From sequence record PP355091.1: a DNA stretch of 64,000 bases; one strand, 5' to 3'. A program made the translations under genes and the position numbers. The stretch is from Escherichia phage 235Ecol030PP. How positions within the stretch are numbered: the first letter of the stretch is position 1; each line of letters starts with the position of its first letter. The notes below the pieces were generated by a model. That model searched no databases and was not told where the DNA came from. It saw nothing but the letters and a program-made list of their open reading frames with translations. Of the stretch, positions 27,175 to 34,301 are shown piece by piece.

Positions 27175-27356
27175 AAGGAATTTATATAATCAATGAGTTC
27201 TTGTTCTTTATTATCAAATTCTTTGGAAAGTTCTTCATATTCATTTGCGCTAAAAGGACCGCATTCATTACAAACTTTTTCCAATTCACTATTTTTATCC
27301 ATAATTTCGTGGATAAGAGAAAAGAGTTTGTCTTTTTGTTCTTTGCTTAGGCTCAT
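27171..27356 (-). CDS. Small acidic helical protein, hypothetical
   Basis: 61 aa; shares EQK..L..L..EI pattern with neighbour. Confidence 0.4.
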   Translation of the reverse strand: MSLSKEQKDKLFSLIHEIMDKNSELEKVCNECGPFSANEYEELSKEFDNKEQELIDYINSL

Positions 27357-27361
27357 ATATT

Positions 27362-27526
27362 AATTTCCAGAAGTTTTAAAATAATTCGCTTTTGCTTAAA
27401 TATTTCCACAGTTAAATGATCAGTATCTTTTTGACCAATTCCAATGGCAAAACCTTTATTAACAGCGAGTTCAATTAAATTATCAAGTTCACGTAACACT
27501 TCATATTGTAACTCAGAACTATTCAT
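27362..27526 (-). CDS. Small ORF (54 aa), hypothetical
   Basis: MNSSELQYEVLRELDNLIELAVNKGFAIGIGQ...; ATG overlaps stop of upstream gene (ATGA); not in track. Confidence 0.3.
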
Positions 27527-27735
27527 TTTGGTTTACCTTCTTTAACGAAATCAGGATAAGGATAAAATCCTGAATAAAATCCTTCACCTTTATGATTGAT
27601 GCATCCTTTATTAGAACAATAGCACCAATAATCGAAATCACAAGCCATTTCATCGTTGCATAAAGCAAAAACAACCGGCCACTTACACTTTTCACAGTGG
27701 GCATTTTTAAGAATACTAGTTTGGCTCATAACCAT
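27523..27735 (-). CDS. Cys-rich small protein (possible metal-binding), hypothetical
   Basis: 70 aa with 9 Cys (CEKCKW...CDFDYWCYCSNKGC). Confidence 0.45.
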   Translation of the reverse strand: MVMSQTSILKNAHCEKCKWPVVFALCNDEMACDFDYWCYCSNKGCINHKGEGFYSGFYPYPDFVKEGKPK

Positions 27736-27953
27736 GTCACCTTTAAGCAGTATTCTTCTACATGTTGTTTACGACCTTTCTTATCAATAAAGGTATATTC
27801 AACGAATGTTCCAATGTAGTCTTTATCTACATCATGTGGACTATTAATTGGACATTTAGTACGGCAAATGCGTTCCCATTGACGAATAATTACTGCTTTG
27901 TTTTTAGGATCAAACGGATGTGGATAATGTATATTCATAATAATGGTTCCCAA
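27726..27953 (-). CDS. Hypothetical protein
   Basis: 75-aa ORF. Confidence 0.45.
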   Translation of the reverse strand: MGTIIMNIHYPHPFDPKNKAVIIRQWERICRTKCPINSPHDVDKDYIGTFVEYTFIDKKGRKQHVEEYCLKVTWL

Positions 27954-28402
27954 TCAACAATCACAATTTCTAATTTAGAGGAATATGCATCTAAAATCCC
28001 CTCAATAATATCCCAGTTCCCTTTACCTATGCCTGCACCAATCCTAGGCATATAGATTGTAGGTTTAATTAGTTTATTTTCACCAAACTCATTTAATTCT
28101 AACATACAATTCATTAAAGCGGAATACTCAAAATTTGGCCCTGGCTGAAATTGAGTATAAAGGTTGAAGCAATACGCTTTATGAGTCCTAAAGTATTTTT
28201 CATAAACTGAGTAAGAACCGAGTTTAGTTACATCACCCCATTCAGTCTGTAATTTATCAGCTTCCAAAATTTTAGGGAAAGCTTTGGTTAATTGACCCGC
28301 TACGCCTGAACCCATAGTATGAAAACAATTGCATCCATGCGCAATATTTTTACCTTCAGCGAAAAGGGCGACAATATCGCCCTTGATATATTTTACAATC
28401 AT
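27935..28402 (-). CDS. Macrodomain protein, TARG1/DarG-like (putative ADP-ribosyl hydrolase)
   Basis: 155 aa; GDIVALFAEGKNIAHGCNCFHTMGSGVAGQL and YMPRIGAGIGKGNW resemble TARG1-type macrodomain motifs; from recalled motifs, not a search. Confidence 0.5.
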   Translation of the reverse strand: MIVKYIKGDIVALFAEGKNIAHGCNCFHTMGSGVAGQLTKAFPKILEADKLQTEWGDVTKLGSYSVYEKYFRTHKAYCFNLYTQFQPGPNFEYSALMNCMLELNEFGENKLIKPTIYMPRIGAGIGKGNWDIIEGILDAYSSKLEIVIVDWEPLL

Positions 28403-28746
28403 CTAGTACTCAATCCTCGATTATAAGAATCTACCAAACGGTCAACCATTGAATGACAAGCGGCTTTATCTTTCTCCTCCGCAACTGAACATTCTAAAGT
28501 ATTCCACTTTTTAGCATATCGTTTTAACAATGTATAGTTTTTGTATCTGCTTGATTTATCCCTTTCTCCGTCTTTATATGCATATATTAATTTCTGTGCA
28601 AATTCAGCTTGGCATGCTTTATTTTTCCCACAATAATCTGCCGCAGTGCGGTTTACATATTCTCTAATTTCAGTATATGATGTATCTGCTGACGCAGAAG
28701 CAGAAAATGAAATTAATCCTATACATAAAACTAAAATTTTAGTCAT
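28399..28746 (-). CDS. Secreted or lipoprotein-like protein, hypothetical
   Basis: 115 aa; N-terminal signal peptide MTKILVLCIGLISFSASASA. Confidence 0.5.
   Translation of the reverse strand: MTKILVLCIGLISFSASASADTSYTEIREYVNRTAADYCGKNKACQAEFAQKLIYAYKDGERDKSSRYKNYTLLKRYAKKWNTLECSVAEEKDKAACHSMVDRLVDSYNRGLSTR

Positions 28747-33041: not shown

Positions 33042-34282
<1,241 letters not shown>

Positions 34283-34301
<19 letters not shown>

What the first reader, a model, noticed from the sequence alone, without database searches (positions are those of the whole stretch)
27935..28402. TARG1/DarG-like macrodomain protein in an early-gene block
The 155-aa ORF carries GDIV...HGCNCFHTMGSGVAGQL and YMPRIGAGIGKGNW, which resemble the catalytic motifs of TARG1-type macrodomains (ADP-ribosyl hydrolases), the fold also used by the DarG antitoxin to remove DNA ADP-ribosylation. 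In a phage early region this is a plausible counter-defence (for example anti-DarT) or regulator of phage Alt/Mod ADP-ribosylation. I do not recall such a function being described for T-even phages, but that is memory, not a search.
Basis: partly seen in the sequence, partly recalled or inferred. Interest (0 to 1): 0.6.

Follow-up and report, generated by a model that had tools for sequence, protein, structure and literature searches.

The report
T4 tk.4 (adfM) anti-DarT macrodomain

Summary

T4 annotation has carried an "A1pp phosphatase motif" since the early 2000s. A November 2025 preprint (HIDEN-SEQ) found tk.4 as the only transposon hit on a DarTG2 host. It showed that a clean knockout sensitises T4 to DarTG2, and named the gene adfM. 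So the anti-DarT guess is supported, and it is not novel.

One refinement comes from this work. The TARG1 and DarG catalytic residues are absent. TARG1 Lys84 / DarG Lys80 aligns with Gln84, which is present in 258 of 258 family members. TARG1 Asp125 aligns with Gly126. This matches Streptomyces SCO6735, a lysine-less enzyme that removes ADP-ribose from thymidine in DNA and whose equivalent Gln85 is essential. The other protein named AdfM, PhiKZ gp104, is a lysine-type DarG relative from a different lineage. Enzymatic activity of Tk.4 itself has not been shown.

The parts
27935..28402 (-). tk.4 / adfM coding sequence, 155 aa, a stand-alone macrodomain
28298..28339 (-). Codons for His22-Ala35 (HGCNCFHTMGSGVA): end of strand beta2 plus loop 1. 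Contains near-invariant His22 and invariant Asn25, Gly33 and Ala35.
   Evidence: Conservation in A1 and in 259 family members. Asn25 aligns with SCO6735 Asn27, DarG Asn22 and PhiKZ AdfM Asn23. His22 aligns with SCO6735 His24 and TARG1 His32, and with Poa1p His23 in the N-terminal alignment. Mutations at the equivalent Asn reduce activity in those enzymes.
28151..28153 (-). Codon CAA for Gln84. This family-invariant residue occupies the position of the catalytic Lys84 of TARG1 and Lys80 of DarG, and equals Gln85 of SCO6735.
   Evidence: Profile alignments. Gln in 258 of 258 members. SCO6735 Q85A and Q85E are inactive (PMC9411070). Codon read.
28013..28048 (-). Codons for Pro119-Trp130 (PRIGAGIGKGNW): loop 2, the diphosphate-binding loop. 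Gly122 and Gly124 are invariant. Gly126 sits at the position of TARG1 Asp125.
   Evidence: Gly124 equals SCO6735 Gly128 and TARG1 Gly123. The SCO6735 G128E mutation lowers activity.
28256..28258 (-). Codon for Asp49, invariant in the Tk.4 family (258/259). DarG, SCO6735 and BT1257 have Tyr here; Poa1p has Asp. Role unknown.
28399..28402 (-). ATGA overlap of the vs stop codon with the tk.4 start codon, which suggests co-transcription and translational coupling
   Evidence: Coordinates, sequence.
27935..27938 (-). ATGA overlap of the tk.4 stop codon with the start codon of the next gene, tk.3

Best explanation
The ORF is tk.4 (recently named adfM) of a T4-type phage. It encodes a free-standing macrodomain of the ALC1/TARG1-like class.

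Most likely mechanism: when the host DarT2 toxin ADP-ribosylates thymidines in single-stranded phage DNA and blocks replication, Tk.4 binds the ADP-ribose through its two glycine-rich loops and cleaves the ribose-thymine bond. The DNA is restored and free ADP-ribose is released.

The active site is the lysine-less 'Gln type' known from Streptomyces SCO6735 (His22, Asn25, Gln84, Gly122/124), not the Lys type of DarG and TARG1. Gln84, held in place by Asn25, would position the distal ribose for water-mediated hydrolysis.

What is shown: gene identity, fold, conserved residues, and (from a preprint on T4) that the gene is needed to resist DarTG2. What is inferred: hydrolysis of thymidine-linked ADP-ribose by Tk.4, and the roles of individual residues.

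For: Genetics in T4: tk.4 was the only significant transposon hit on a DarTG2 host, and a clean deletion was sensitised.

Active site: Gln84 aligns with TARG1 Lys84 and DarG Lys80 and is present in 258 of 258 relatives. BT1257, the best structural and sequence neighbour, is a close homologue of SCO6735 (E 1e-53). SCO6735 removes thymidine-linked ADP-ribose from DNA, protects against DarT, and loses all activity on Q85A; N27S nearly abolishes activity (PMC9411070). Tk.4 keeps the equivalents of SCO6735 His24, Asn27, Gln85, Gly126 and Gly128.

Consistency check: phage T5, which is DarTG2-sensitive, has no detectable macrodomain in its six-frame translation, while this window has exactly one.
Against: No biochemical assay of Tk.4 exists in the literature I could search; the preprint itself says enzymatic removal 'seems likely'. 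The genetic evidence is a preprint. The DNA-contacting lysines of SCO6735 (Lys34, Lys89) are not conserved in Tk.4, which has Ser32 and a shorter QPGPN loop. Sequence similarity to SCO6735 is weak (24 bits pairwise), so the shared Gln could reflect a different chemistry. The N-terminal half (HxCNC, Asp49) looks more like yeast Poa1p, an ADP-ribose-1''-phosphate phosphatase.
Confidence: 0.72

Rival explanations
1. Tk.4 neutralises DarTG2 without catalysis. It would act as a stoichiometric inhibitor that binds DarT2, or binds and shields ADP-ribosylated DNA; a macrodomain that has lost the catalytic lysine would serve as a binder.
For: The catalytic Lys of DarG and TARG1 is absent. Catalytically dead SCO6735 Q85A, DarG K80A and TARG1 K84A still inhibit DarT in vitro by interaction, with SCO6735 the strongest. 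The other anti-DarT factors, AdfA and AdfB, are described as appearing to act by binding the toxin.
Against: His22, Asn25, Gln84 and the glycine loops are strictly conserved across 259 relatives from very different phages and hosts. That fits a catalytic site better than a surface matched to one toxin. Tk.4 lacks the C-terminal DarT-binding domain of DarG: it is 155 aa and the match covers model positions 2-145 of 329. The Gln-type enzyme SCO6735 is fully active.
Confidence: 0.12
2. Tk.4 is chiefly a small-molecule ADP-ribose-derivative enzyme, as the legacy 'phosphatase' annotation implies: a Poa1p-like ADP-ribose-1''-phosphate phosphatase or an O-acetyl-ADP-ribose deacetylase. The DarTG2 phenotype would then be indirect or secondary.
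Against: The knockout phenotype is specific to DarTG2, a DNA ADP-ribosylating toxin. Poa1p has Ser, not Gln, at the position of Gln84. T4 RNA repair (PNKP plus ligase) is not known to produce ADP-ribose-1''-phosphate (established knowledge of the Tpt1 pathway, not tested here).
Confidence: 0.08
3. Tk.4 reverses or tunes the phage's own ADP-ribosylation of host proteins by Alt, ModA and ModB.
For: T4-type phages encode three ADP-ribosyltransferases, and no eraser for them has been assigned (general knowledge; reviews listed).
Against: Alt and Mod modify arginine. ALC1/TARG1-class macrodomains are characterised on Asp/Glu esters and on thymine or uracil bases, not on arginine (otherwise background knowledge). 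No phenotype on hosts lacking a defence system was reported: tk.4 was a hit only on the DarTG2 host. Homologues occur in thousands of phages from many groups; I did not check whether those phages also carry Alt/Mod.
Confidence: 0.03

Closest known systems
T4 Tk.4 = AdfM (anti-DarT factor Macrodomain), bioRxiv 10.1101/2025.11.20.689424
   Same: 154/155 identical, same length, same position between vs and tk.3. This is the same gene in a sister phage.
   Different: One substitution, Ala139 here against Thr in T4. It lies in the helix spanning residues 130-140, outside the conserved motifs.
Streptomyces coelicolor SCO6735 (PDB 5e3b) and its Bacteroides homologue BT1257 (2afc, 2fg1)
   Different: Only about 21-28% identity. 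SCO6735 Lys34 and Lys89, and its longer mobile loop, are not conserved. Tk.4 has an invariant Asp49 where these proteins have Tyr. SCO6735 is a DNA-damage-inducible bacterial gene, not a phage gene.
DarG antitoxin of DarTG2 (macrodomains 5m31, 5m3e, 5m3i, 7omu)
   Different: DarG uses Lys80, which is Gln in Tk.4. DarG is about 330-350 aa and has a C-terminal DarT-binding domain that Tk.4 lacks. DarG is encoded next to darT. The NCBIfam DarG equivalog model scores 30.4 bits against a cut-off of 250.
PhiKZ gp104, also named AdfM (Cell Rep 2026, PMC13309987)
   Same: A phage stand-alone macrodomain that counters DarTG2. Removal of ADP-ribose from DarT2-modified DNA was shown in vitro.
   Different: A different lineage. 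gp104 has the DarG-type FPTKDNW motif with Lys. It scores 72-90 bits against DarG but only 4.8 bits against Tk.4. It is imported into the phage nucleus.
Human TARG1 / OARD1 (4j5r, 2l8r)
   Same: Same fold class. The loop motifs (GD.., MG.G.A, MPRIG.G..W) are very similar. TARG1 also removes thymine- and uracil-linked ADP-ribose.
   Different: The TARG1 catalytic dyad Lys84/Asp125 is Gln84/Gly126 in Tk.4.
Yeast Poa1p (6lfq), ADP-ribose-1''-phosphate phosphatase
   Different: Ser instead of Gln at position 84. Poa1p is 177 aa with insertions and acts on a small-molecule substrate.
T4 AdfN (gene 30.3), the NADAR-type anti-DarTG1 factor (PMC11825919)
   Same: Same strategy: an orphan eraser enzyme that removes ADP-ribose from phage DNA.
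   Different: Unrelated fold (NADAR). Acts on guanine-linked ADP-ribose from DarT1. Encoded elsewhere in the genome, outside this window.

Membership tests
Macrodomain superfamily (Pfam PF01661) | Profile match above the curated threshold | tested here: met
   27.7 bits against a gathering score of 22, E 2.8e-6, covering model positions 2-113 of 118.
Macrodomain superfamily (Pfam PF01661) | Three-layer alpha/beta/alpha macro fold | tested here: met
Macrodomain superfamily (Pfam PF01661) | ADP-ribose-binding loops (Gly-rich loop 1 and loop 2) and an N-terminal Asp for adenine | tested here: met
   Asp9; G31-S-G33-V-A35; P119-R-I-G122-A-G124. These align with the same motifs in TARG1, DarG and SCO6735 and are invariant or nearly so. 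Their assignment to ligand contacts comes from the literature on those structures.
ALC1/TARG1-like macrodomain class | Closest relatives by sequence and structure are class members, clearly separated from MacroD, viral and PARG classes | tested here: met
TARG1 (OARD1) catalytic type | Lys84/Asp125 catalytic dyad | tested here: not met
   Lys84 aligns with Gln84 and Asp125 with Gly126. No Lys occurs at this position in 258 relatives.
DarG antitoxin (DarTG2) | Catalytic Lys80 in an FPTK motif | tested here: not met
   LYTQ in Tk.4 against FPTK in Taq and Mtb DarG.
DarG antitoxin (DarTG2) | Two-domain protein with a C-terminal DarT-binding domain; score above the equivalog cut-off | tested here: not met
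   155 aa. The PADLOC DarG match covers model positions 2-145 of 329. NCBIfam antitoxin_DarG scores 30.4 bits against a cut-off of 250.
DarG antitoxin (DarTG2) | Encoded next to a darT toxin gene | tested here: not met
   Flanked by vs and tk.3 in a phage gene block.
DarG antitoxin (DarTG2) | Neutralises DarT2 | not testable with these tools
   Reported genetically for the 99%-identical T4 protein.
SCO6735/BT1257 Gln-type DNA ADP-ribosylhydrolases | Gln at the catalytic position, with the supporting Asn, His and Gly-x-Gly residues | tested here: met
   Tk.4 His22, Asn25, Gln84, Gly122 and Gly124 equal SCO6735 His24, Asn27, Gln85, Gly126 and Gly128. Roles of these residues are from PMC9411070.
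SCO6735/BT1257 Gln-type DNA ADP-ribosylhydrolases | DNA-positioning Lys34 and Lys89, and the extended mobile loop | tested here: not met
   Ser32 at the Lys34 position. The loop after Gln84 is shorter (QPGPN) and has no Lys.
SCO6735/BT1257 Gln-type DNA ADP-ribosylhydrolases | Orthology-level sequence similarity | tested here: inconclusive
   BT1257 is the best PDB match (E 1.3e-9 for the single sequence, 1.6e-18 for the profile). Identity is only about 28%, and SCO6735 scores no better than DarG or TARG1. Tk.4 forms its own clade, found mostly in phages.
SCO6735/BT1257 Gln-type DNA ADP-ribosylhydrolases | Hydrolysis of thymidine-linked ADP-ribose on ssDNA | not testable with these tools
   Needs an enzyme assay.
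Poa1p-type ADP-ribose-1''-phosphate phosphatase | Poa1p active-site residues; PDB mutants exist for His23, Ser30 and Phe152 | tested here: inconclusive
   His22 matches His23, Thr29 sits at the Ser30 position, and Asp49 matches a Poa1p Asp. Poa1p has Ser where Tk.4 has the invariant Gln84. Activity is not testable here.
T4 Tk.4 / AdfM orthologous group | Near-identity and conserved position between vs and tk.3 | tested here: met
   154/155 identical to T4 Tk.4. Same neighbours in T4 and RB14.

The most novel reading that the evidence does not exclude
Tk.4 defines a large clade of lysine-less macrodomains found mostly in phages, with invariant His22, Asn25, Asp49 and Gln84. On this reading, phages recruited it independently of the DarG-derived PhiKZ AdfM. 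It would remove base-linked ADP-ribose by a water-mediated, Gln-dependent mechanism. Like SCO6735 and TARG1, it might also act on uracil-linked ADP-ribose in RNA or on acidic-residue ADP-ribosylation. That would make it a broad eraser against several ADP-ribosyltransferase defences rather than a dedicated DarG mimic. Asp49, which has no counterpart in DarG or SCO6735, would be a clade-specific catalytic or specificity residue.
Probability: 0.4. Interest if true: 0.5.

Novelty: already known. Interest (0 to 1): 0.27.

Why it matters
The gene shows that T-even phages carry a second 'eraser' enzyme, alongside the NADAR protein AdfN, that undoes DNA ADP-ribosylation by bacterial DarT toxins. That role is now in the literature, so the window adds no new biology. 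What remains open and testable is the chemistry: how a macrodomain without the DarG/TARG1 lysine cleaves thymine-linked ADP-ribose, what the invariant Asp49 does, and whether the enzyme also protects against RNA- or protein-directed ADP-ribosyltransferases. Homologues are present in about 5.6% of sequenced phage genomes (2846 of 50,697 records), so the answer would apply widely. It also bears on choosing phages for therapy against DarTG-carrying pathogens.

Tried and rejected
1. TARG1-type catalysis. Rejected: the Lys84/Asp125 dyad is Gln84/Gly126.
2. Filing Tk.4 as a DarG orthologue or co-opted antitoxin. Rejected: no Lys80, no C-terminal domain, far below the NCBIfam cut-off, and no adjacent darT.
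3. Equating T4 AdfM with PhiKZ AdfM. Rejected: 4.8 bits pairwise, while gp104 scores 72-90 bits against DarG.
4. Looking for a bacterial origin or a toxin-antitoxin context. The two members labelled as bacterial MAG proteins (P0073, P0113) both lie on T4-like phage contigs carrying genes such as PNKP, dCMP deaminase, RNA or DNA ligase and a Dda-like helicase, so this said nothing about origin.
5. Domain fusions of longer family members. Nine of ten showed only the Macro domain, or Macro plus a weak sub-threshold match. One is fused to NUDIX.
6. Promoter and terminator scan for expression timing. Counts were not above those in shuffled sequence.
7. Spatial position of Asp49 relative to the active site.
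8. Literature searches for any biochemical work on Tk.4. None was found beyond the HIDEN-SEQ genetics.

Full report
**Observation.** The ORF listing returns an ATG-started ORF at 27935..28402 on the minus strand, 155 aa. The start codon overlaps the stop codon of the upstream gene in an ATGA (28399-28402). The stop codon overlaps the start of the downstream gene in another ATGA (27935-27938). The gene is therefore embedded in a tightly packed minus-strand operon.

**What the window is.** A 2.5-kb stretch around the ORF is 98% identical to Escherichia phages ZCEC14, RB14, RB18 and T2. In the T4 reference record the equivalent gene is tk.4, between tk.3 and vs. It is annotated 'phosphatase; contains A1pp phosphatase motif'. 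The window's protein is 154/155 identical to T4 Tk.4, differing only at A139T. Compared with T4, the window has two extra small ORFs between tk.2 and tk.3, as RB14 does.

**Is it a macrodomain?** Yes.
- Pfam Macro scores 27.7 bits against a gathering score of 22. PHROG 335 scores E 3e-65.
- The single sequence finds BT1257, Poa1p, DarG macrodomains, SCO6735 and TARG1 among solved structures.
- A 62-sequence family profile sharpens this: BT1257 1.6e-18, TARG1 3e-15, SCO6735 1.9e-14, Mtb DarG 8e-14, Poa1p 9e-14.
- The AlphaFold2 model is very confident (pLDDT 95.6, pTM 0.91).

**What is already known.** The A1pp (macro) motif of tk.4 is in the T4 reference annotation and in a 2006 comparative paper (PMC1524935). 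A November 2025 preprint (HIDEN-SEQ, 10.1101/2025.11.20.689424) infected a DarTG2-expressing host with a T4 transposon library. It found tk.4 as the single significant hit. A clean knockout became sensitive to DarTG2, and the authors named the gene adfM, anti-DarT factor Macrodomain. Enzymatic removal of ADP-ribose from DNA was stated only as 'likely'. T4 also carries AdfN (gene 30.3), a NADAR enzyme that counters DarTG1 (PMC11825919). The other idea, control of Alt/Mod ADP-ribosylation, has no support.

**Active-site refinement.** In every profile alignment the stretch NLYTQ of Tk.4 aligns without gaps to YLITK of TARG1 and NFPTK of DarG. Gln84 therefore occupies the position of TARG1 Lys84 and DarG Lys80, and TARG1 Asp125 aligns with Gly126. 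The Mtb DarG macrodomain matched 5m3i exactly over the residues shown. The typed TARG1 gave the same alignment, residue for residue, as the 4j5r chain.

Gln84 is not a peculiarity of this phage. It is invariant in the 62-sequence alignment. It is present in 258 of 258 residue-bearing members when the 139 additional representatives from the exhaustive profile search are added. The same holds for Asn25 (258/259), Asp49 (258/259) and His22 (246/259).

The best structural neighbour, BT1257, is a close homologue of Streptomyces coelicolor SCO6735 (E 1e-53). SCO6735 lacks the TARG1 and DarG catalytic residues, carries Gln85 at that position, cleaves thymidine-linked ADP-ribose from DNA and protects against DarT. 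It is completely inactivated by Q85A or Q85E and nearly so by N27S. A water-mediated mechanism has been proposed for it (PMC9411070). Tk.4 His22, Asn25, Gln84, Gly122 and Gly124 correspond to SCO6735 His24, Asn27, Gln85, Gly126 and Gly128. SCO6735's DNA-positioning Lys34 and Lys89 are not conserved in Tk.4. The N-terminal half of Tk.4 (H-x-C-N-C, Asp49) resembles Poa1p instead.

**Two different proteins called AdfM.** A 2026 Cell Reports paper gives the same name to PhiKZ gp104 and shows in vitro that it removes ADP-ribose from DarT2-modified DNA (PMC13309987). I translated the construct printed in that paper. It has FPTKDNW, the DarG-type motif with Lys. It scores 72-90 bits against DarG macrodomains and only 4.8 bits against Tk.4. 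Phages have therefore used two different branches of the ALC1-like class for the same counter-defence.

**Membership.** Tk.4 is not a DarG orthologue. It has no Lys80 and no C-terminal DarT-binding domain; the PADLOC DarG match covers only model positions 2-145 of 329. NCBIfam antitoxin_DarG scores 30.4 bits against a cut-off of 250, and no darT gene lies next to it. It works like DarG but is not a member of that family. By active-site residues it is nearest to the SCO6735 type, yet by overall sequence it forms its own clade.

**Distribution and consistency.** tblastn finds homologues in 2846 of 50,697 phage records, in phages of Escherichia, Klebsiella, Salmonella, Pseudomonas, Vibrio, Acinetobacter, Aeromonas, Campylobacter and other hosts. 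The exhaustive profile search finds 18,507 clusters at E<=1e-3 and 1236 at E<=1e-30. Two close members labelled as bacterial MAG proteins actually sit on T4-like phage contigs. Phage T5, which the papers use as a DarTG2-sensitive control, has no detectable macrodomain in a six-frame search with the Tk.4 profile or with DarG, TARG1, SCO6735 or PhiKZ sequences (best E 0.022). The window gives exactly one hit, Tk.4.

**Mechanism and confidence.** I consider it about 90% certain that the gene is the anti-DarTG2 factor, on the strength of preprint genetics with a 99%-identical orthologue. I put about 70% on the mechanism being enzymatic removal of thymidine-linked ADP-ribose through a Gln-type active site. 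The main rival is non-catalytic inhibition (about 12%). It is kept alive by the missing lysine and by the observation that dead SCO6735 and DarG mutants still inhibit DarT in vitro. A small-molecule role (Appr1p or OAADPr) is about 8%, and reversal of Alt/Mod modifications about 3%.

**Verdict.** The residual interest lies in the unproven chemistry: lysine-less hydrolysis, the invariant Asp49 and the breadth of substrates.

Noticed in passing
window 27353-27526 and 27523-27735 (minus strand): Two small ORFs (57 and 70 aa) lie between tk.2 and tk.3. T4 lacks them, but RB14 has them (annotated RB32ORF110c and RB32ORF111c). The second has a Cys-rich, zinc-finger-like sequence (CEKC...CNDEMAC...CYCSNKGC). 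Function unknown.
   Followed up: partly
window 28399-28402 and 27935-27938: ATGA stop/start overlaps join vs to tk.4 and tk.4 to tk.3. This suggests translational coupling along the regB-vs-tk.4-tk.3 block.
   Followed up: partly
window 28256-28258 (codon for Asp49 of Tk.4): Asp49 is invariant in the Tk.4 family (258/259). DarG, SCO6735 and BT1257 have Tyr at this position, while Poa1p has Asp. I could not place it relative to the active site. It may be a clade-specific catalytic or specificity residue.
   Followed up: partly
window 33846-34301 (minus strand); protein P0221: A 151-aa ORF next to the lysozyme gene carries a Nudix box and matches the position of T4 nudE (e.1). From memory, T4 NudE hydrolyses ADP-ribose. 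One Tk.4-family member (P0221) is a Macro-NUDIX fusion, which hints that the ADP-ribose released by the macrodomain may be degraded further.
   Followed up: no
literature (PMC13309987 and bioRxiv 10.1101/2025.11.20.689424): The name AdfM is used for two non-orthologous phage macrodomains: PhiKZ gp104 (Lys type, DarG-like) and T4 Tk.4 (Gln type). They share 4.8 bits pairwise. This naming collision could mislead annotation.
   Followed up: yes
window 28399-28746 (vs, upstream neighbour): The same preprint reports that vs, the valyl-tRNA synthetase modifier gene, is the most depleted T4 gene in minimal medium compared with LB. It is translationally coupled to tk.4 here.
   Followed up: no
L006 41-2397; L007 5001-5480: In a distant T4-like phage contig (L006) the Tk.4 homologue lies one gene downstream of an RNA ligase 1 gene (with a DUF4326 gene before that) and directly before a Dda-like helicase gene. 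In both contigs PNKP and dCMP deaminase genes are nearby. The gene's position is therefore not conserved outside the Tequatrovirus group.
   Followed up: partly
L004 6548-8195 (phage T5 genes T5.102 and T5.105): T5, which lacks a detectable macrodomain, is annotated with two Sir2-like (NAD-dependent) genes, so it has a different set of NAD/ADP-ribose genes from T4.
   Followed up: no
bioRxiv 10.64898/2026.06.19.733364: A 2026 preprint on phage T2 reports an Hfq-mediated interaction of the host sRNA ArcZ with the tk.4 mRNA, with no change in Tk.4 protein level in the arcZ mutant. It mislabels tk.4 as a 'putative thymidine kinase'.
   Followed up: no
window 28364-28384 (plus strand): A terminator-like hairpin with 8 pairs followed by a T-rich tail lies antisense within the 5' end of tk.4. 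Hairpin counts in the region are only slightly above those in shuffled sequence (6 against 3.2 +/- 2.0), so it is probably chance.
   Followed up: no
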